This document shows, in pieces, positions 18,006 to 24,422 of a stretch of DNA of 40,371 nt. A program made the translations under genes and the position numbers. The stretch spans positions 1-40,371 of the forward strand of contig CBDCWP010000020.1 of NCBI GenBank assembly GCA_965223505.1, read 5' to 3'. Source of the DNA: Planctomycetota bacterium (GTDB lineage: Bacteria > Planctomycetota > PLA2 > JAEUHO01). Within the stretch, counting starts at the first letter, position 1. Each line of letters begins with the position of its first letter. The notes under the pieces are model-generated. The model was not told the origin of the DNA and searched no databases. It worked only from the letters and a program-made list of their open reading frames with translations.

Positions 18006-20306
18006 GTGAGCGACGCGCCTCGATCTCGATTCCCCACCCCTGCCGTCCTGGTGGCGGGTGCGTCCGGACTGATCATCCTCGTGATCGAGTTCGCGGCCGT
18101 GCGCATGCTGGCGCCGGCGTTCGGACAGTCGAATTACGTCTGGGCCAACGTGATCGGTTGGATCCTCGCCGCGCTGGCCGGCGGCTACTGGGTCGGCGGC
18201 CGCCTCGGCGACCGCAGTGAGCGTCCCACGCCGCTCTTCGTCGCGCACGGCATCGCGGCGCTGTACACGATCGGCGTCGCCTTCCTGGGGCCTTCGGTCT
18301 GCCGCGGTTTGATCCCCGAGGGCGTCGAGAGCGGCGGCGTCTTGCCGTTGGCCTTCGTCGGCAGCTCGATCGCGTCGATTGCCCTGTTCGTCGTGCCGGC
18401 GTTCCTGCTCGGCATGACGAGCCCGTTCTTGATCCGCATGTGGTCGCGCCCGGACGACGCCGGGCGAACGACGGGTTCGATCTACGCGTTCGGCACCCTG
18501 GGAAGTCTGGTCGCGTGCTACTACGCGCCGACGCTGTGGCTGCAGGTCTGGGGCACGCGGCTGACACTGCTCCTGTGTGCGGCGCTGTTGATCGTCATGG
18601 CCGCGGCCGGGGCGGTGTTGCTGCGCGGTCACCGCAAGCCGGACGGGGCGGCGGACGGGGCGGCCACCGTCAGCGGCCGGGTGCCCGTCGGGCTGGTGGG
18701 TGTCGCGCTTCTGGCCGGCGTGGCGATCACGATCGTCGAGTTCGCCGCCGTTCGGTTCATGTCGCCCTGGTTCGGGCAGTCGAACCACATCTGGGCCAAC
18801 GTGATCGGCGTGATCATGCTCGGCATCGCGCAGGGCGCCGCGCTCGGCGGGCGCTTCGCGGACCGCGCGAACAACGGCAACCTCATGTACTGGGGCTTCG
18901 GCGTGGCTGCGATGTGGCTGGCCGTCGTCGCCGTGTTCGGTCCCCGCATGTTCGAGCTGCTGGCGCCCCCGGATCTGCTCAGCACCCAGGTGCTGCCGGT
19001 GGCGCGGTACGGCAGCCTGTTCGCGGCGGCGCTTTGCTTCGGGGTGCCCGTGCTGCTGCTGGGGATGGCGACGCCGTTCCTGGTGCGGCTGGGACGCGAG
19101 CATGCGCCGGTCGGGCGCACCGCGGGCGCGATGCTCGCCTGGGGGACGGTGGGGGGGCTGCTCGGCTGCTTCCTGACGCCGGTCCTGCTCGTGCCCGCCT
19201 TCGGCTCACGCGGCACGCTCGTGCTCGTGGGTCTTGCGATCGCCGTCGTCTCGTTGCAGCAGCTCTTCCGGTCGCGCGCACGGCGTTTCGCGCCGGCTTT
19301 GGCGGGAGCGCTCTCGTGCGCCGGGGTGCTGATCTGGCAGATGACGGGCGCGCCGCCGTTGCGCGTCCACGACGGACAGCTGGCGGAACACGAGTCGCGT
19401 TATCAAACCCTGCGCGTCGTCGAGCGGGAGCTGCCGTTGCTGGTGCCGACGCCGGACCGGCCGCCGGCGATCGGCGGCATGGCGGGCAAGACCCGGACAC
19501 GCTTCCTTCGGCACGACGAGGACGCCGAGACGTACCAGAGCCTCTACCTGCCGCGCCCGCCGAACGAGGCGGTGCTGACGGGGTCGCGCTACTTCGAGCA
19601 CATGGCCGTGGGCGCCCACTTCGTCCCCCGTCGGGAGAGCGGCGAGCTGCGCGTGCTGATCATCGGCTACGCGGGCGGGACGGTGCATCGAACGCTGCGC
19701 GAGATCGTCCCCGACGACGTAGCGCTGTCGGTGCTCGGCGTGGAGATCGATCCGGGCGTGATCACGATCGCGCGTGAGTTCCTAGCGCACCAGGAGCTCG
19801 AGGACGACGGGCTCGAGCTGATCACGGGCGAGGACGCGCGCACGGTGGTGAACGCGCTGCCGGCGTCGCGCACGTTCGACCTGGTGCTCGTGGACGCGTA
19901 CGCGCGCACGAACTACCTGCCGTTCCAGCTCGCATCGAAGGAGTTCTTCGAAAAGGTGCGGTCGCATCTCGCGCCGGACGGGTGGCTGGGGGTGAACGTG
20001 CTCGGCAAGGGCATGGACGGCCTCGTCTCGAAGTCGGTGGCGACGACGATGACCGAGGCGGTGGGGGACACGTTCGTCACGCCGAATCGTTTCTACCCCG
20101 GCAACGTGATCTTGTGGACCTCGCCGGGCAGCGCCGTTGCGCCGCGCGTTCGTCTCGTCGCGCCGATTCACAAGGGCTTGCGCGGCGCCGTGTACGAGGT
20201 CGAGCGACTGACGGTGAGGCACGATCCGAAGAAGGACGGCGGGATCGTGCTCACGGATGATCTGAGCCCGTCGGACCGGATGGCCGACGAGGAGCTGGGG
20301 CTCTGA
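18006..20306 (+). CDS. Fused membrane-domain / spermidine-synthase-like SAM-fold protein
   Basis: Two copies of the module EFAAVR...FGQSN..WANVIG. C-terminal VLIIGYAGG, VEIDP, DAR and FDLVLVDAY. Confidence 0.85.
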   Translation: MSDAPRSRFPTPAVLVAGASGLIILVIEFAAVRMLAPAFGQSNYVWANVIGWILAALAGGYWVGGRLGDRSERPTPLFVAHGIAALYTIGVAFLGPSVCRGLIPEGVESGGVLPLAFVGSSIASIALFVVPAFLLGMTSPFLIRMWSRPDDAGRTTGSIYAFGTLGSLVACYYAPTLWLQVWGTRLTLLLCAALLIVMAAAGAVLLRGHRKPDGAADGAATVSGRVPVGLVGVALLAGVAITIVEFAAVRFMSPWFGQSNHIWANVIGVIMLGIAQGAALGGRFADRANNGNLMYWGFGVAAMWLAVVAVFGPRMFELLAPPDLLSTQVLPVARYGSLFAAALCFGVPVLLLGMATPFLVRLGREHAPVGRTAGAMLAWGTVGGLLGCFLTPVLLVPAFGSRGTLVLVGLAIAVVSLQQLFRSRARRFAPALAGALSCAGVLIWQMTGAPPLRVHDGQLAEHESRYQTLRVVERELPLLVPTPDRPPAIGGMAGKTRTRFLRHDEDAETYQSLYLPRPPNEAVLTGSRYFEHMAVGAHFVPRRESGELRVLIIGYAGGTVHRTLREIVPDDVALSVLGVEIDPGVITIAREFLAHQELEDDGLELITGEDARTVVNALPASRTFDLVLVDAYARTNYLPFQLASKEFFEKVRSHLAPDGWLGVNVLGKGMDGLVSKSVATTMTEAVGDTFVTPNRFYPGNVILWTSPGSAVAPRVRLVAPIHKGLRGAVYEVERLTVRHDPKKDGGIVLTDDLSPSDRMADEELGL

Positions 20307-20965
20307 TGCGGACACTCGTGATCATCGGCGTGTTGCTCGTCTCGGTCGCAGGCGCCGAACGTGCCTGGGCGCGCGAACCCAGTCCGGCGGTACGCACTTC
20401 GATGGAGCTGGCGGTGCTCGAGGGGCGTGCACGCGACGTTGCGACGATTCGCAAGGCCGCGAAGGCGGACGGCCCGCTCGGCTTGTGGCCGCAGGCGGTC
20501 TTGGACCTGTGGTGGCGCCCGGATCCGTCCGTTCAGAAGACATACGAGGCGCTGGTGGGGGGGGACGTGAACGGCTTGATGGGGGAGCGATATCGCTGGT
20601 TGTTCGCCGCCCCACCGCGCGGCGACTACCCGATGCCCACTGACGGCGCGACGGATCCGTATCCTGTGTTGTCGGCGTTGATCCTCGATCGCGTCCATCG
20701 GGACCGCATCGGGTTGGCCGGGTTGCCCGAGAGGAGTCCCCTCAACGAGCACCGGGAACATCCCAACGAGCGGGTTGCGTGGTTCGCCAACGCGGCCGAG
20801 AACGACATGGCGCGGACGTACTACGGCGGGTTGCCGCCGCGGACCGAGGACGTCCAGCTGCAGGAGAAGGCGGACGAGCTCGAGTTCCGCAACGGCCTGC
20901 TGGCGCTTGCGATGGTGCTCTTGCTGGTGCTCGTACCCATTTGGATCGGGCGGAAGTTCGAGTAA
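20306..20965 (+). CDS. Hypothetical exported protein with C-terminal membrane anchor
   Basis: TGATG overlap, signal peptide (..ERAWA) and C-terminal LLALAMVLLLVLVPIWIGRK. Confidence 0.7.
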   Translation: MRTLVIIGVLLVSVAGAERAWAREPSPAVRTSMELAVLEGRARDVATIRKAAKADGPLGLWPQAVLDLWWRPDPSVQKTYEALVGGDVNGLMGERYRWLFAAPPRGDYPMPTDGATDPYPVLSALILDRVHRDRIGLAGLPERSPLNEHREHPNERVAWFANAAENDMARTYYGGLPPRTEDVQLQEKADELEFRNGLLALAMVLLLVLVPIWIGRKFE

Positions 20966-20978
20966 CGGGTGATTGGAC

Positions 20979-20986
20979 GTAAGAAA
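20979..20986. repeat. Target-site duplication, left copy (GTAAGAAA)
   Basis: Identical 8-mer at 23313-23320; each copy abuts a terminal inverted repeat. Confidence 0.9.
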
Positions 20987-21096
20987 GGTGCTGGGTTACT
21001 TTGAATTGGGCCGTTCGACCGACCTGCGCGGCCCGTTTGAAGGGCCGCGATGAGCAAGACTACGCATCTCCGTGGTCGCCATGGTTCAATGGCGGC

Positions 21097-21354
21097 ATGC
21101 CTAAACGGTCAAGCAAGAAACAGGCCGCCCGCAAGCGCGAGGATACCAACCAAGCCGCTGCGCGGATCGTCCGCCAGACCACTGGCCAGCAGAAGCCCGC
21201 AGACGAGGGGAAGAACCCCGCTGCGGTCGCGCTTGGCCGTCTGGGCGGGCAGAAGGGCGGACCAGCCCGCGCCAAGAGCCTGTCTGCGGCTCGCCGTAAG
21301 GCCATTGCTAAGAAGGCTGCGCAGGCTCGATGGGGGAAGCGCAAGTCAAAGTGA
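21097..21354 (+). CDS. Small highly basic protein (85 aa) with KGG-like motif, likely nucleic-acid binding
   Basis: MPKRSSKK...DTNQAAARIV...KNPAAVALGRLGGQKGGPARAKSLS...IAKKAAQARW. From recall, it resembles small proteins found beside this transposase type. Confidence 0.8.
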   Translation: MPKRSSKKQAARKREDTNQAAARIVRQTTGQQKPADEGKNPAAVALGRLGGQKGGPARAKSLSAARRKAIAKKAAQARWGKRKSK

Positions 21355-21417
21355 TCCCACGGGCCACGATTTGCCGACAGGGTGGATATACTTCCGGGCC
21401 CACCTTGGAGATAGAGC

Positions 21418-21732
21418 GTGCCTGACGAACAGAAGGCAGAGAAGCAAGTCCCGATTAAGTGGGACATCCCCGATGACGAGGGGCCGGTCCACATCTCAAA
21501 CATGCTTGTGCAGCATACGGACCACGAATTCCTCGTCCGCTTTTTCCAGGTTTACCCACCTCTCTTACTCGGAACCGACGAGGAGAAAGAGGAGCAGGCC
21601 AAAGAGATCAAGCATGTCGAGGCTCGCTGCGTTGGGCAGTACGTTCTGGCGCCTGAGCGCATTCAGAAGTTCATTGACGCGCTCACCACGAATCTTGGCC
21701 GCTGGAACGCAAAGCAAAAGCAGGGGGACTAG
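21418..21732 (+). CDS. DUF3467-like small protein
   Basis: GGAG RBS and GTG start. The pattern PVHISNMLVQHTDHEFLVRFFQ...VGQYVLAPERIQKFIDAL resembles DUF3467 (recognised by eye). Confidence 0.65.
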   Translation: MPDEQKAEKQVPIKWDIPDDEGPVHISNMLVQHTDHEFLVRFFQVYPPLLLGTDEEKEEQAKEIKHVEARCVGQYVLAPERIQKFIDALTTNLGRWNAKQKQGD

Positions 21733-21734
21733 AA

Positions 21735-22004
21735 GTGAACATTGTCGCAGATCCGAAGTCCATCATAGAGGCCGACTCGTCCCTAAGGATCGACCTCGCG
21801 CCGATTGCAGCTTCCACCTTCTTGATCTCAACCGGGGCGGGCGACGTGGATAGTGCGGACAACCAAGGGCCGACACACGAAGAGCTGATTGAGATGGCCC
21901 GCGAGTATCCGGCGCTCTCGGATACGGAGATTGACGAACTCTGGGAACTGACGTCGAGGTTCGACGAAACCCGCGCCCGTGCTGAGGCTGACCCGGATTT
22001 TTAA
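21735..22004 (+). CDS. Small acidic protein, candidate antitoxin
   Basis: 89 aa with an Asp/Glu-rich helical C-terminal half. Starts 2 nt after the upstream stop and ends 9 nt before the toxin-like gene. Confidence 0.55.
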   Translation: MNIVADPKSIIEADSSLRIDLAPIAASTFLISTGAGDVDSADNQGPTHEELIEMAREYPALSDTEIDELWELTSRFDETRARAEADPDF

Positions 22005-22013
22005 GCGGCCACT

Positions 22014-22379
22014 ATGCTTGAAGAGGCTCCGTTCTTCCCCATGCGAGCCTTCTGGGCGTTAGCAGGTGCCAAGAAGCGCTTGGTGATCGTTCTTGCGCCC
22101 AAGAAGCCGGGCGGCGCGCATCCAGTCATTTACGGAACTGGTGCTCCGCCTTGGGCGGGCCGACAGTGGGCCGAGAAGTGGCACCTGCTTTTGCATCTTC
22201 GCAAAAACGATATCCCCCAGTTCAGGTTGTCGAAGGACACGTTTCTCTATCTTGAGACAATTCCAACCGGGGGAATCCCAGACGACCCAAGACGGAAGTT
22301 CCGTGGACTTGTGCCAATGGACTTCTGGGTTGATCTACGCAAGATGATTCGCCAGCACATGAACCACAAGCCCCCGTAG
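22014..22379 (+). CDS. Divergent MazF/PemK-like protein (putative endoribonuclease toxin)
   Basis: Order and spacing of RAFWA, KKRLVIVL, VIYGT, LSKDTFLYL and KFRGLVPMDFWVDLRKMI parallel the MazF pattern GDIxWV / KxRPxLVL / VVPIT / GLxKDS / IGxLxxxxMxxV. Confidence 0.55.
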   Translation: MLEEAPFFPMRAFWALAGAKKRLVIVLAPKKPGGAHPVIYGTGAPPWAGRQWAEKWHLLLHLRKNDIPQFRLSKDTFLYLETIPTGGIPDDPRRKFRGLVPMDFWVDLRKMIRQHMNHKPP

Positions 22380-22383
22380 CCGC

Positions 22384-22416
22384 TTGACATTGCTTGATCG
22401 CTCAAGCATAATGTCA
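22384..22416 (+). promoter_or_regulatory. Sigma70-type transposase promoter overlapped by a palindromic operator
   Basis: TTGACA (22384-22389), 17-nt spacer, CATAAT (22407-22412), 6 nt, then ATG. TGCTTGA-tcgc-TCAAGCA palindrome (22391-22408). Confidence 0.8.
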
Positions 22417-22418
22417 TT

Positions 22419-23303
22419 ATGAATCGACTAAGCGATAGGCGACGCGCGCAGATTCTGTCGTGTCTCGTGGAAGGCATGAGCATTCGTGCCACGTCGCGGA
22501 TTGCGGGCGCAGCCAAGAACACGATTCAGAAGCTGAGCCGGGACGTGGGGATCGCCTGCGGCCTCTTTCAGCATGAGCGGCTGCGCAATCTGCCTTGCAC
22601 ACACATTCAAGCCGACGAGGCGTGGGCGTTCTGCGGCATGAAGGAGCGCAACGTGCCTCGGGACAAGCAGGGCGTGTTCGGCTATGGCAACGTGTGGGTC
22701 TGGACGGCCCTGTGCATGGACACGAAGATCGTCCCGTCCTGGGTGCTCGGCAACCGCGACCAAGAGGCAGCCATGGCGCTGCTGTGCGACCTACAAAAGC
22801 GGCTGGCCCACCGCATCACATTGAACACGGACGGGCTAAGGGCGTACCACACAGGCGTCGTCGTGGCCTTCGGTGGGGACGTGGACTACGCCCGCGTCGT
22901 CAAGAACTTCAGCACGCCCAACAGACGTTGGAGTGGTGTCGACAACCGTTACTCGCCGCCGATCGTCACCAACGTCAAGCGCGAGCGCGTCTGCGGCAAT
23001 CCCAAGGTGGCCGAGGCCAGCACGTCCTACGTCGAGCGCTTCAACCTGGGGCTCAGGATGGGCATGCGCCGCATGACTCGCCTCACCAACGGCCACAGCC
23101 GCAAGGTCGAGAACTTCGGCTACGCCCTCAACCTGCACTACACGCACTACAACTGGTGCCGCAAGCACGAGAGTCTGAACGGCGCGACACCCGCGATGGC
23201 CAACGGGCTTACCAGTCGCGTCTGGACCACAAAGGACCTGATCGGCCTCCTACCCGCATGGAATAGGGACAAAGAGCCCAAGAAACAGGCGATTTCAAAC
23301 TGA
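22419..23303 (+). CDS. IS1-family DDE transposase (single ORF, N-terminal HTH)
   Basis: HTH LVEGMSIRATSRIAG..KNTI; catalytic IQADE, LNTDG and TSYVERFN..LR..MRR..R. Stop codon lies inside the right inverted repeat. Confidence 0.9.
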   Translation: MNRLSDRRRAQILSCLVEGMSIRATSRIAGAAKNTIQKLSRDVGIACGLFQHERLRNLPCTHIQADEAWAFCGMKERNVPRDKQGVFGYGNVWVWTALCMDTKIVPSWVLGNRDQEAAMALLCDLQKRLAHRITLNTDGLRAYHTGVVVAFGGDVDYARVVKNFSTPNRRWSGVDNRYSPPIVTNVKRERVCGNPKVAEASTSYVERFNLGLRMGMRRMTRLTNGHSRKVENFGYALNLHYTHYNWCRKHESLNGATPAMANGLTSRVWTTKDLIGLLPAWNRDKEPKKQAISN

Positions 23304-23312
23304 CCCAGCACC

Positions 23313-23320
23313 GTAAGAAA
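23313..23320. repeat. Target-site duplication, right copy (GTAAGAAA)
   Basis: Identical to 20979-20986. Confidence 0.9.
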
Positions 23321-23357
23321 CACCATAAGAAACATTATCAGACGTTCTCAGGGGGCT

Positions 23358-23884
23358 GAATCACGGGCGACGCTGGGCGACCATGGGCCCACTCCGACCC
23401 CCGGAAGCCGGTCCGACGGCTTCGCCACCAGCCCCCTGAGTACGTCTGATGAATGTTCTGACGGAGGCACCCGTCGCGATCCGTGCGCCGAATCACGGGC
23501 GACGCTGGGCGACCATGGGCCCACTCCGACCCCCGGAAGCCGGTCCGACGGCTTCGCCACCAGCCCCCTGAGTACGTCTGATGAATGTTCTGACGGAGGC
23601 ACCCGTCGCGATCCGTGCGCCGAGTCACGGGCGACGCTGGGCGACCATGAGCCCACTTCGGCCCCCGCAAAGCGCTCCGACGGCTCCGCCACCAGCCCCC
23701 TGAGTACGTCTGATGAATGTTCTGACGGAGGCACCCGTCGCGATCCGTGCGCCGAATCACGGGTGACGCTGGGCGACCATGGGCCCACTCCGACCCCCGG
23801 AAGCCGGTCCGACGGCTTCGCCACCAGCCCCTGAGTACGTCTGATGAATGTTCTGACGGAGGCACCCGTCGCGATCCGTGTCGC
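23358..23884. repeat. Tandem array, 4 copies of a 132-bp structured unit
   Basis: Copies start at 23358, 23490, 23622 and 23754. Copies 1 and 2 appear identical. Copy 3 has about 9 substitutions in its first half. Copy 4 has one substitution, a 1-nt deletion and a diverged end. Confidence 0.95.
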
Positions 23885-23975
23885 CTCGGGCAGTCTCCGC
23901 TGTCGGCTCCGTACGGGCCGAATCCCGTACATAGCGGGCTACCTATGGGCGGGCGGGAATGCCGATAGCGACTCC

Positions 23976-24422
23976 ATGCCTCGCCGCCGACGCCCGCATC
24001 GAGCCCGCTCCAACCACGACGCCATGGCCATCGGCTGCGTCGTGGCCCTGGTCGTCCTGCTCGCCGTGATGGGCGTCAGCCGCATGCAGGCCGGGACTGA
24101 CAGGCTCCCGGAGGTGACCCTGGCGCCCAGACCGGCCGCGCCCGCCGTCGAGCCGCCGAAACCGGTCGTTCGCAAGCCGGCCGAGCACAGCCGCCTCAAG
24201 GAGCTCCGCAAGGTCATGATCGACGTGCAGCGCACCGCCGAGAGCCTTCGCGTCATGGCCAGAGGGCCCGCCTTCGAGAACACCCGCGTCGACGCGCTCG
24301 CCAAGCTGTCGGAAGCGCGACGGTCACTCGGCGCCTACCTCGACGAGCACCCTGACGACGACCGCGGTCATCGCCTCTGGGACCGCCTGCAAGGGATGTA
24401 CATCACCCTCAAGAAATTCTGA
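23976..24422 (+). CDS. Hypothetical single-pass membrane protein
   Basis: Basic N-terminus, TM (AIGCVVALVVLLAVMGV), Pro-rich linker and helical domain. Confidence 0.65.
   Translation: MPRRRRPHRARSNHDAMAIGCVVALVVLLAVMGVSRMQAGTDRLPEVTLAPRPAAPAVEPPKPVVRKPAEHSRLKELRKVMIDVQRTAESLRVMARGPAFENTRVDALAKLSEARRSLGAYLDEHPDDDRGHRLWDRLQGMYITLKKF

What the first reader, a model, noticed from the sequence alone, without database searches (positions are those of the whole stretch)
20979..23320. Complete IS1-family cargo transposon with intact ends and four passenger genes
Seen: 21-bp GGT-starting inverted repeats (18/21 match), a perfect 8-bp GTAAGAAA duplication, and one uninterrupted HTH+DDE transposase at the right end. 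About 1.4 kb of passenger DNA lies between the left end and the transposase promoter. Known: classical IS1 is about 0.8 kb with insA/insB only, GGT-starting ends and 8-9 bp duplications. Inference: this is a recently inserted transporter IS with a fixed scaffold (small basic gene on the left, transposase on the right) and an exchangeable cargo slot in the middle.
Basis: partly seen in the sequence, partly recalled or inferred. Interest (0 to 1): 0.8.

Follow-up and report, generated by a model that had tools for sequence, protein, structure and literature searches.

The report
IS1-like cargo-carrying transposon, intact
This 2.3-kb stretch is an intact jumping gene of a distant branch of the IS1 family that moves as one block with three passenger genes of unknown function, a real but already recognised kind of element.

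Summary
Window 20987-23312 (2326 bp) is bounded by GGTGCTG... inverted repeats (18/21; 23/29 by tool) and a perfect 8-bp duplication, GTAAGAAA. A second copy elsewhere in the same genome ends at the same bases and has a different 8-bp duplication, GGGTTTCG. So the whole block, passengers included, transposes.

The 294-aa transposase is a single-ORF HTH+DDE protein distantly homologous to E. coli IS1 InsA-HTH plus InsB. It has no zinc finger or frameshift.

Among 80 relatives' loci, 69 have the same kind of ends and 56 have perfect 8-bp duplications (1.8-5.4 kb). The small basic gene (orfA) matched in 67 of these 69, usually beside the left end, so it is core equipment, not cargo. DNA between orfA and the transposase promoter differs even between elements whose transposases are 95-98% identical. 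The "fixed scaffold plus exchangeable slot" reading is therefore supported.

In relatives the slot is enriched for anti-phage or toxin-antitoxin-type genes: PADLOC hits in 28 of 63 elements. The window's three passengers (a DUF3467 protein and two orphans) remain unexplained.

This scan has met the family repeatedly. I rate it a new member of a known kind, of moderate interest.

The parts
20979..20986 (.). left copy of the 8-bp target-site duplication GTAAGAAA
   Evidence: copy 2 has a different duplication
20987..21015 (+). left terminal inverted repeat (IRL), starts GGTGCTG
   Evidence: pair I1 (29 nt, 79%); (2 matches against 0.03 expected); the left boundary of identity with copy 2 is this base
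21097..21354 (+). orfA, an 85-aa basic protein (MPKRSS...ARWGKRKSK). Conserved core gene of the element family; probable DNA-binding accessory factor or regulator.
   Evidence: blastp cluster 0 in 45 of 48 elements; HMM hit in 68 of 70; alignment A3; no Pfam or PDB relative
21418..21732 (+). orfB, passenger, 104 aa, DUF3467 family
   Evidence: 888 representative clusters at E<=1e-3; 57 of 75 aligned homologues hit PF11950; AF2 model pLDDT 93.6; best fold matches are COMM domains at Z 5.9, which is weak
21735..22004 (+). orfC, passenger, 89 aa, acidic, no family; starts 2 nt after the orfB stop
   Evidence: no hits
22014..22379 (+). orfD, passenger, 121 aa, orphan
   Evidence: no homologue by word search or in 300 genomes of the phylum; weak Atlas lead to PemK-like clusters; single-sequence model unusable, pLDDT 39
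22384..22412 (+). transposase promoter TTGACA-17-CATAAT, embedded in the palindrome GCTTGA..TCAAGC; the ATG lies 6 nt after the -10 box, so the mRNA is likely leaderless or nearly so
   Evidence: the only promoter-like site in 20900-23400; conserved ATGCTTGAC ... AAGCATAAT arrangement in relatives
22419..23303 (+). transposase, 294 aa: HTH (about residues 9-45) plus DDE domain (D66, D138, E206, R213)
23284..23312 (-). right terminal inverted repeat (IRR); overlaps the last codons of the transposase gene
23313..23320 (.). right copy of the 8-bp target-site duplication GTAAGAAA

Best explanation
Window 20987-23312 is an autonomous 2326-bp transporter insertion sequence (tIS) of a distant, single-ORF branch of the IS1 family.

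Shown: the unit IRL - orfA - orfB/C/D - promoter - transposase - IRR has transposed as one piece at least twice in this genome, each time making an 8-bp target duplication. The transposase carries an InsA-like HTH fused to an InsB-like DDE domain.

Inferred: the HTH recognises the inner part of the ends (GGGTnAnTTTGAA). The DDE triad D66/D138/E206 cleaves and joins the ends with an 8-bp stagger.

Shown at family level: orfA, a small basic protein, and the transposase with its promoter are the constant parts. The DNA between the orfA stop and the transposase -35 box is the variable slot. In relatives this slot is replaced wholesale and is enriched for defence and toxin-antitoxin-type genes.

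Inferred: orfA is a DNA-binding regulator or accessory factor, playing the role that InsA plays in IS1. The transposase promoter, which sits inside a palindrome and in relatives next to copies of the end motif, is auto-regulated.

The three passengers here form one tightly spaced operon of unknown function. My working guess, at about 35%, is a small addiction or defence-type module.
For: Ends and duplication. Second copy with the same ends and another duplication. The first 1605 bp (ends, orfA, cargo, promoter) are identical between the copies.

Transposase: NF033558 transpos_IS1 E 4.3e-15. hhalign against E. coli InsB gives probability 90%, E 1.5e-6 over 121 columns spanning D, D and E. HTH against InsA gives E 1.4e-4. 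D66, D138 and E206 are conserved in 166/166, 166/166 and 165/166 aligned sequences. Homologues are named 'IS1 family transposase' by JGI and NCBI.

Family anatomy: 69 of 80 relatives' loci have an end pair, 56 of them with an 8/8 duplication, sizes 1781-5383 bp. orfA is in 45 of 48 elements by blastp clustering and in 68 of 70 by HMM.

Cargo turnover: in L067/L075 the transposases are 95% identical, the cargo is 1044 against 2333 bp, and only part of orfA is shared. In L007/L009 the transposases are 98% identical and homology stops at the orfA stop and resumes 43 bp before the transposase start.

Cargo content: PADLOC hits at E<=1e-5 in 30 of 148 cargo ORFs, in 28 of 63 elements, against 8 of 148 flank ORFs chosen the same way. 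Fisher p = 1.9e-4.

Foreign origin: element GC is 60.1% against 68.3% for the window, and cargo GC3 is 0.66-0.72 against 0.85-0.91 in neighbouring genes. Nothing from the element, cargo included, was found in the 30 relatives' genomes beyond two short low-scoring matches, one in orfA and one in the transposase gene.

Promoter.
Against: The transposase scores below the curated cut-offs of both IS1 models (56.2 against 100 bits for NF033558; 21.5 against 24.1 bits for PF03400). It lacks the InsA zinc finger and the frameshift, so 'IS1 family' holds only in the wide sense.

No empty site was seen in relatives or in contigs of four public runs, so recency rests only on the perfect duplications and the near-identity of the two copies.

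Copy 2 carries 5 single-base insertions and 1 substitution, all inside the transposase gene. I cannot tell real decay from assembly error.

The role of orfA is inferred from conservation and position only. It has no Pfam or PDB relative. A shared operator before orfA and the transposase is evident in some relatives but not in this element.

The cargo enrichment counts related elements: 17 of the 28 carry the same PD-Lambda-2_B-like gene. The p-value therefore overstates independence. The orfA HMM was built from the same set it was then searched against.

The window's own cargo has no PADLOC, Pfam or PHROGs hit, apart from the weak DUF3467 match.
Confidence: 0.9

Rival explanations
1. The three passengers (orfB-orfC-orfD) are a toxin-antitoxin-like or anti-phage module. 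DUF3467 (orfB) would be a third, adaptor or chaperone-like component, orfC an acidic antitoxin-like protein and orfD a toxin or effector. The module would stabilise the element or defend its host. This is a sub-hypothesis about the cargo, compatible with the main explanation.
For: The same slot in relatives holds PADLOC-recognised defence or TA-type genes in 28 of 63 elements: PD-Lambda-2_B-like in 17; RosmerTA components RmrT and/or RmrA in L007, L043, L078 and L080; restriction-modification in L013, L023 and L027; HEC-04 and HEC-09. Flank ORFs score 8 of 148. The three genes are packed like an operon, with gaps of 2 and 9 nt. In 3 of the 4 other DUF3467 loci found in 300 genomes of the phylum (L106, L108, L109), the DUF3467 gene heads a similar tightly spaced three-gene row. 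In two of these (L106, L108) the last gene has a sub-threshold HicA_toxin match (E 0.025 and 2e-4), and in L106 the middle gene has a sub-threshold antitoxin match (PHD_like, E 3.9e-4). The Atlas places orfD near clusters of which one has 16% PemK_toxin members.
Against: orfB, orfC and orfD have no PADLOC, PHROGs or NCBIfam hit, and their only Pfam hit is the sub-threshold DUF3467 match of orfB. orfC and orfD have no detectable homologues, so nothing can be tested by conservation. The HicA and antitoxin matches in other loci are all below the Pfam thresholds. The orfB fold matches only weakly (COMM domain, Z 5.9). Guilt by association within one element family is weak evidence.
Confidence: 0.35
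2. orfA is just another passenger that happens to be common, or a histone-like host-mimic as some annotations say ('histone H1'). On this view it is not a functional part of the transposition machinery.
For: It has no similarity to InsA or to any Pfam or PDB family. It is annotated 'histone H1' on a Mesorhizobium loti plasmid. In some elements it lies in the interior or is inverted (L027, L032, L063; L025 at 3.3 kb). Its C-terminal motif also occurs at the N-terminus of P63C-domain cargo proteins.
Against: It is present in 68 of 70 elements whose other cargo is unrelated, usually 30-100 bp inside the left end and on the transposase strand. It is retained when the neighbouring cargo is swapped. 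In a subset of relatives the same ATGCTT..AAGCAT palindrome precedes both orfA and the transposase gene.
Confidence: 0.1
3. The element belongs to the IS1595 family, the sister family of IS1 that is known (recalled) to include cargo-carrying members with 8-bp duplications, rather than to IS1.
For: 8-bp duplications and passenger genes are typical of IS1595-family tIS (recalled, Siguier et al. 2009, not seen here). There is a weak NF033547 transpos_IS1595 match, E 3.5e-4.
Against: The IS1 model scores far better (56.2 against 20.5 bits). Direct profile alignment to E. coli InsB and InsA is colinear. The ends begin GGTGCTG like IS1A's GGTGATG. There is no N-terminal zinc finger. All named homologues are called IS1 family.
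Confidence: 0.05
4. The unit is not mobile as a whole: an ordinary roughly 1-kb IS sits next to unrelated genes, and the left 'end' is a chance match.
For: None after testing. This was only the prior, given that classical IS1 is 0.77 kb (one search shows IS1A at 768 bp).
Against: The second copy shares the whole 2.3 kb, ends at the same two bases and has its own 8-bp duplication. 56 relatives show the same architecture with perfect duplications. The end motif is 60-fold above chance in the window.
Confidence: 0.01

Closest known systems
IS1 (IS1A of E. coli K-12), prototype of the IS1 family
   Same: DDE catalytic core colinear with InsB (D..D..E, then R at +7). The HTH is like that of InsA. 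The ends start GGTnnTG (IS1A: GGTGATG / GGTAATG; here GGTGCTG). The target duplication is short and fixed (8 bp here; 8-9 bp for IS1, recalled). The promoter lies close to transposase-binding-like sequences, suggesting autoregulation (IS1 InsA repression: passage seen in PMC8944449).
   Different: IS1A is 768 bp with insA and insB' joined by a -1 frameshift (PMC8944449 passage). Here there is one uninterrupted 294-aa ORF, no InsA zinc finger, an insertion of about 40 residues between the second D and E, and a C-terminal extension of about 50 residues. A separate, unrelated small basic gene sits at the far left, and 1 kb of passenger genes lies in between. Scores fall below the curated IS1 model cut-offs.
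Transporter IS (tIS): insertion sequences that carry passenger genes
   Same: A single transposase, terminal inverted repeats, a target duplication, and genes unrelated to transposition carried inside. The concept is stated in PMC3129680 and PMC7986276 (passages read).
   Different: Those passages name no IS1-family example. ISfinder's IS1 subgroup with sizes up to about 4.6 kb (ISMhu11 group) is recalled from memory only; my search for 'ISMhu11' found 0 papers. This clade adds a conserved second core gene (orfA) and a defined slot.
The same IS1-like cargo family as noted earlier in this scan on other genomes (e1-2087543, e1-3220973, e1-4213790, e1-5169863 and others)
   Same: GGTAGTG-type ends, 8-bp duplications, a small basic protein gene, swappable cargo that is often defence-type, and a preference for sites a fixed distance from TTGAC boxes. 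I re-derived each of these independently.
   Different: The window's element is a divergent lineage: its best transposase identity is 56% and its ends are GGTGCTG rather than GGTAGTG. Its two insertions are not beside TTGAC boxes at the preferred spacing. No shared operator is evident. Its cargo (DUF3467 plus two orphans) is not seen in any of the 69 relatives.
Mobile insertion cassettes and MITEs derived from IS ends
   Same: The same genome holds 208-221-bp elements with family-type ends and 8-bp duplications. They could be moved in trans.
   Different: The window's element encodes its own intact transposase.

Membership tests
IS1 family (ISfinder sense; criteria recalled) | DDE transposase homologous to InsAB' (HTH followed by the InsB catalytic core) | tested here: met
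   hhalign of the family profile against E. coli InsB: probability 90%, E 1.5e-6, 121 columns through D, D and E. Against the InsA HTH: probability 53%, E 1.4e-4. NF033558: E 4.3e-15, but 56.2 bits is below the cut-off of 100. PF03400: 21.5 bits, below 24.1. The protein is homologous but distant.
IS1 family (ISfinder sense; criteria recalled) | Terminal inverted repeats beginning GGT (GGnnnTG) | tested here: met
   GGTGCTG at both ends. IS1A reads GGTGATG and GGTAATG in L105. Relatives read GGTAGTG.
IS1 family (ISfinder sense; criteria recalled) | 8-9-bp target-site duplication | tested here: met
   8 bp in both genomic copies and in 56 of 69 relatives.
Classical IS1 subgroup | insA and insB' reading frames joined by a programmed -1 frameshift; InsA N-terminal zinc finger; length about 0.77 kb | tested here: not met
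   A single 294-aa ORF. The alignment to InsA covers only its HTH, residues 53-89. NF033558 matches from model position 43 onwards. The element is 2326 bp.
Transporter IS (tIS) | An IS-like unit (one transposase, IRs, target duplication) that carries genes not needed for transposition and moves with them | tested here: met
   Two copies with identical cargo and different duplications. The cargo is unrelated to that of 69 relatives.
IS1595 family | Transposase matching the IS1595 model, with an N-terminal zinc finger | tested here: not met
   NF033547: 20.5 bits against a cut-off of 75. The N-terminus is an HTH with no zinc finger.
Known anti-phage defence systems (PADLOC-DB 2.0) for the window's own cargo | A match of orfB, orfC or orfD to a PADLOC model | tested here: not met
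   0 families at E<=0.01 for orfB, orfC and orfD. This says nothing about unknown systems.
Type II toxin-antitoxin module for orfC/orfD | A recognisable toxin and antitoxin family; toxicity neutralised by the partner | tested here: inconclusive
   No Pfam hit at E<=1. The only lead is a weak Atlas match to a PemK-containing cluster. Toxicity is not testable with these tools.

The most novel reading that the evidence does not exclude
The element is one lineage of a very large clade of IS1-like transposons: over 7,500 transposase clusters were scored. I found no description of the clade in print. Its constant parts are a small basic DNA-binding protein (OrfA) and a self-regulated transposase. 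Between them lies a hot-swappable slot that preferentially ferries small anti-phage or toxin-antitoxin modules between phyla. On that reading the window's orfB-orfC-orfD is a new three-gene defence or addiction system built around a DUF3467 protein. That would give DUF3467 its first functional context and make the slots of this clade a discovery tool for new defence genes.
Probability: 0.25. Interest if true: 0.7.

Novelty: new member of a known kind. Interest (0 to 1): 0.4.

Why it matters
For this window, the result explains a 2.3-kb low-GC island as one mobile unit. It shows that four 'hypothetical' genes are one core gene plus a three-gene passenger operon of foreign origin.

More broadly, the family is abundant, reaches many phyla (Acidobacteriota, Alpha-, Beta- and Gammaproteobacteria, Planctomycetota, Verrucomicrobiota, Nitrospirota, Actinomycetota and Bacteroidota by record titles) and is poorly annotated. 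The core gene is even labelled 'histone H1'.

Its slot carries recognised defence genes about four times as often as flanking DNA does. It is therefore a plausible small-scale vehicle for defence and addiction modules, and a place to look for new ones.

None of this is a new principle. Cargo-carrying ISs and defence genes on transposons are established ideas, and this scan has already met the family several times.

Tried and rejected
Empty site. A DNA search of 30 relatives' genomes with window 20300-24000 found only two short, low-scoring matches, one in orfA and one in the transposase gene, and no syntenic flank. The genus has no other genome. Contigs of four public runs from one study cover both junctions in the occupied form, and no joint skips 20987-23312. 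One contig of run X3 enters the element from other DNA, consistent with copy 2. This does not show that an empty site never existed.

Binding of orfB to orfC. Complex prediction gave no verdict, score 0.00. That is evidence neither for nor against binding.

orfD. The single-sequence model had pLDDT 39 and was not searched. No homologues were found by word search or in 300 genomes (the 4 weak hits contain stops or are marginal).

orfB fold. Foldseek against the PDB found nothing at E<=0.001. VIA wide search gave a best match of COMM domains at Z 5.9, then Pur-alpha and PC4 at Z 4-4.8, all below the level that means more than a common arrangement.

Wider context for DUF3467. The single-protein scan found no relative.

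orfA. A profile search against PDB sequences found 0 hits at E<=1. Pfam gave only scattered hits above E 0.003.

A slip. Searches used window:21098-21354, one base out of frame, for orfA. Those orfA rows are void. The frame was corrected; PADLOC and PHROGs were not re-run on the correct orfA.

Literature. 'ISMhu11' is in 0 papers. Searches combining IS1 family, passenger genes, transporter IS, defence systems, PD-lambda-2 and RosmerTA returned no paper describing this clade. Two reviews I tried by PMC id are not held. ISfinder and TnPedia could not be consulted.

A shared operator before orfA and the transposase in this element: the longest common word is 6 nt, so it is not evident. In that run the orfA upstream window for this element ended 14 nt short of the ATG.

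Target preference for TTGAC boxes: real in relatives but not seen at either insertion of this element.
Full report
**1. The observation**

Reading the window shows ...GGAC GTAAGAAA | GGTGCTGGGTTACTTTGAATTGG ... CGATTTCAAACTGACCCAGCACC | GTAAGAAA CACC.... The two ends match at 18 of 21 positions. The repeat finder extends them to 29 nt at 79% complementarity (20987-21015 and 23284-23312), the longest of 65 inverted pairs in 20900-23400. The end motif occurs exactly twice in the 40-kb window against 0.03 expected, and 0 of 100 shuffles reach two matches.

The 8-bp direct repeat lies at 20979-20986 and 23313-23320. The element proper is therefore 20987-23312, 2326 bp.

The transposase ORF (22419-23303, 294 aa) is open. 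The only promoter-like site in the region, TTGACA-17-CATAAT (11 of 12), ends 6 nt before its ATG.

**2. Does the whole block move?**

Yes. The assembly in which the window lies holds a second copy on another contig (G000:C32:26587-28918, minus strand). It matches from the first base of the left end to one base beyond the right end. It is flanked by its own 8-bp duplication, GGGTTTCG. Different flanks, identical ends and different duplications are the signature of transposition of the entire unit, passengers included.

The two copies are identical over the first 1605 bp (ends, orfA, cargo, promoter). They differ by five single-base insertions and one substitution in copy 2, all inside the transposase gene, at window-equivalent positions 22592-23283. 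The chance that six random differences all fall there is about 0.003. I cannot tell whether copy 2 is a decaying, non-autonomous copy or an assembly artefact. The genome has no other transposase of this kind.

**3. The transposase**

- Pfam and NCBIfam give IS1 as the best family, but below the curated cut-offs: NF033558 E 4.3e-15 with 56.2 against 100 bits, and PF03400 with 21.5 against 24.1 bits. IS1595 scores only 20.5 bits.
- I took IS1A from E. coli K-12 and compared directly. BLASTP gives colinear matches over the first D, second D and E.
- A 30-sequence family profile aligns to InsB with hhalign probability 90%, E 1.5e-6. Residues 9-45 align to the InsA helix-turn-helix at E 1.4e-4.
- Relative to InsAB' the protein lacks the zinc finger and the frameshift. 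It has an insertion of about 40 residues between the second D and E, and a longer C-terminus.
- D66, D138 and E206 are conserved in 166/166, 166/166 and 165/166 aligned sequences, and R213 at E+7 in 166/166.
- IS1A's ends read GGTGATG and GGTAATG against GGTGCTG here.

This is a distant, single-ORF member of the IS1 family. Public sources name its homologues the same way.

**4. The family**

The word-indexed search scored 7522 proteins at E<=0.001 among the 8000 candidates kept. The best non-self identity was 56%. In species-representative genomes, 351 of 480 candidate stretches encode a relative, and the best 80 loci were fetched.

I delimited elements by script.

- A first pass, requiring inverted ends found de novo plus a duplication, resolved 48 of 81 loci, counting the window's own.
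- A second pass used the consensus end GGTAGTGGGTCAGTTTGAA. It found an end pair in 69 of the 80 relatives: 56 with a perfect 8/8 duplication, 3 with 7/8, 9 with fewer, and 1 at a contig end.
- The other 11 loci lacked one or both ends in the DNA held, in several because the contig or locus ends too close to the gene.
- Sizes run from 1781 to 5383 bp. The single 923-bp case (L048) has a degenerate left end and no duplication.
- No 'bare' IS of about 1 kb was seen among these 80.
- Thirteen elements also carry more than 300 bp between the transposase stop and the right end.
- An annotated example sits on a Mesorhizobium loti plasmid (CP050295.1), with perfect ends and the duplication CGCTGGTG.

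**5. Scaffold and slot**

All-against-all blastp of ORFs upstream of the transposase gave one dominant cluster. It contains the window's small basic gene and is present in 45 of 48 elements.

Its members share two motifs, KRPRDxNQLAKxIVDxATGE and GGxKGGKARAxxLTPEERSEIAxxAAxARW. An HMM built from them hits 68 of 70 delimited elements, mostly 30-100 bp inside the left end and on the transposase strand. It is inverted in three elements, missing in L048 and L058, partial in L037 and frameshifted in L071. That HMM count is partly circular, since the model came from this set; the blastp clustering is not. The correct reading frame in the window is 21097-21354 (85 aa).

The family has no Pfam or PDB relative. 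On the M. loti plasmid it is annotated 'histone H1'.

Everything else upstream of the transposase varies.

- L067 and L075 have 95% identical transposases but 1044 against 2333 bp of cargo, sharing only part of orfA.
- L007 and L009 have 98% identical transposases. Homology stops at the orfA stop and resumes 43 bp before the transposase start.

The variable slot is thus bounded by the orfA stop codon and the transposase promoter.

**6. Control region**

Upstream of the transposase most relatives have ATGCTTGAC (the -35 box), often paired with GTCAAGCAT/AAGCATAAT (the -10 box) as a palindrome. Many have AAACTGACC, the inner part of the end motif, a few bases further upstream. Some have GGTCAGTTTGAAA between -35 and -10.

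The window has the nested palindrome GCTTGACATTGCTTGA..TCAAGCATAATGTCA. This arrangement suggests auto-regulation by a protein that also binds the ends; that step is inferred.

In five relatives (L005, L018, L072, L074, L081) the same ATGCTT..AAGCAT motif precedes orfA at a similar distance. In the window it does not (for the window's element that run ended 14 nt short of the orfA ATG).

**7. Cargo in relatives**

Pfam on 32 representative ORFs found HTH plus M78 peptidase, HigB-like toxin, P63C, ParA-like ATPase, SDH/ClpP-like protease, nSTAND1 NTPase, SNase, HARE-HTH and trypsin-like peptidase.

For PADLOC I took non-overlapping ORFs of at least 90 aa. I left out orfA, the transposase, four duplicate elements (L006, L012, L014, L053), the window's own element, the truncated L048, and L037, which had no such ORF.

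| Set | ORFs with a hit at E<=1e-5 | Elements or loci with a hit |
|---|---|---|
| Cargo | 30 of 148 | 28 of 63 elements |
| Flanks of the same loci: 148 sampled at random from 337 ORFs chosen the same way | 8 of 148 | 8 of 63 loci |

The cargo hits were:
- PD-Lambda-2_B-like in 17 elements. Only the B component matches, and 8 of these also have the HigB-like gene.
- RosmerTA RmrT and/or RmrA in L007, L043, L078 and L080.
- An M78 (capP-like) protein in L025.
- Restriction-modification genes in L013, L023 and L027.
- HEC-04 in L069, HEC-09 in L081, and PDC-M34A in L041.

Fisher p is 1.9e-4 by ORF and 1.4e-4 by element. Related elements are not independent, so these p-values overstate the case. 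The direction is clear.

**8. Target choice**

In 56 insertion sites with perfect duplications, TTGAC starts 7 nt beyond the duplication in 6. The mirrored GTCAA ends 7 nt before it in another 6. The chance of 6 or more at one fixed position is 3e-11. Neither copy of the window's element sits at such a site.

**9. The window's passengers**

orfB (21418-21732), orfC (21735-22004) and orfD (22014-22379) are separated by 2 and 9 nt.

- Their GC3 (0.66-0.72) and the element's GC (60.1%) are well below the host's (GC3 0.85-0.91; window GC 68.3%). This supports a foreign origin.
- orfB is a DUF3467 protein: 888 representative clusters at E<=1e-3, and 57 of 75 aligned homologues hit PF11950. Its AF2 model is confident (pLDDT 93.6): three strands, a short helix and a long C-terminal helix. 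Fold matches are weak: COMM domains at Z 5.9, Pur-alpha and PC4 at Z 4-4.8.
- DUF3467 is rare in the phylum, in 4 of 300 other genomes.
- In three of those four loci (L106, L108, L109) it heads a tight three-gene row. In L106 and L108 the last gene has a sub-threshold HicA_toxin match, and in L106 the middle gene has a sub-threshold antitoxin match.
- orfC and orfD have no family and no homologues. orfD has only a weak Atlas lead to a cluster with 16% PemK members.

A toxin-antitoxin-like or defence-type trio is my best guess, at about 35%. It is not shown.

**10. Comparison with what is known, and verdict**

Cargo-carrying insertion sequences ('transporter IS') are an established category (passages read in PMC3129680 and PMC7986276). 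ISfinder lists, as I recall, IS1 subgroups of up to about 4.6 kb. I could not reach ISfinder, and my six literature searches found no description of this clade.

Earlier notes of this scan describe the same family on other genomes several times: a small basic gene, swappable and often defence-type cargo, a TTGAC-linked target, and a shared operator. I saw those notes after reaching the same conclusions. I re-tested their claims here.

The finding is real and well read by the first stage. It is a new member of a known kind: a new, divergent IS with novel cargo. Interest is moderate.

Noticed in passing
own genome outside the window: G000:C44:145642-145849 (L102 1501-1708), G000:C14 (L101 1299-1519), G000:C43 (L104 1301-1519), G000:C25 (L103 1501-1618): A MITE family of 208-221 bp with the family-type ends (GGTAGTGGGTCAGTTTG...). 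Two copies have perfect 8-bp duplications (AAATCCTA, GTCCGTTG), a third repeats 7-8 bp (TTCGTCG[T]), and the 118-bp C25 copy is degenerate. The genome holds 7 full-length copies at 77-100% identity and 14 partial matches. The end pattern gives 8 hits against 0 for the reversed control. The genome encodes no transposase with these exact ends, only the window's GGTGCTG-type element.
   Followed up: partly
window 23358-23885: Four tandem copies of a 132-bp unit (94% matches) start 38 bp to the right of the element. Long ORFs on both strands across it are probably spurious.
   Followed up: no
G000:C32:26587-28918 (L002): Copy 2 of the element differs from the window's copy only inside the transposase gene: five single-base insertions, four of them lengthening a short run of one base, and one substitution. 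This is either a decaying non-autonomous copy or an assembly error. A Logan contig of run X3 stops at 22594, next to the first difference.
   Followed up: partly
relatives' loci L005, L019, L023, L028, L039, L044, L058, L060, L072, L074, L078, L080, L081: These elements carry 300-1800 bp between the transposase stop and the right end, a second cargo position. In L023 it holds a complete type II methyltransferase and restriction enzyme pair.
   Followed up: partly
relatives' loci L006, L012, L013, L014, L027, L044, L069, L078: These elements have good end pairs but non-matching flanks (fewer than 7 of 8). L006, L012 and L014 carry near-identical elements, and L012 and L014 lie in the same Thalassobaculaceae genome, which also holds L010. 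This pattern is expected if copies have recombined with one another and scrambled the flanks.
   Followed up: no
56 insertion sites of relatives: There is a target preference. TTGAC begins 7 nt beyond the duplication in 6 sites, and the mirrored GTCAA ends 7 nt before it in 6 more. TTG at that position is commoner still. The element's own transposase promoter carries the same ATGCTTGAC box.
   Followed up: partly
L022 2603-3967, L040 2799-3899, L077 2807-3880: P63C-domain cargo proteins begin with the same KGGKARAxxLTxxERxxIAxxAAxARW motif that forms the C-terminal half of orfA. The motif therefore looks like a portable, probably DNA-binding, module.
   Followed up: no
L086 (Mesorhizobium loti plasmid CP050295.1) 2575-2784: The orfA homologue of a complete element (ends at 2296 and 5665, duplication CGCTGGTG) is annotated 'histone H1' in GenBank. 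This is a likely mis-annotation that probably recurs.
   Followed up: yes
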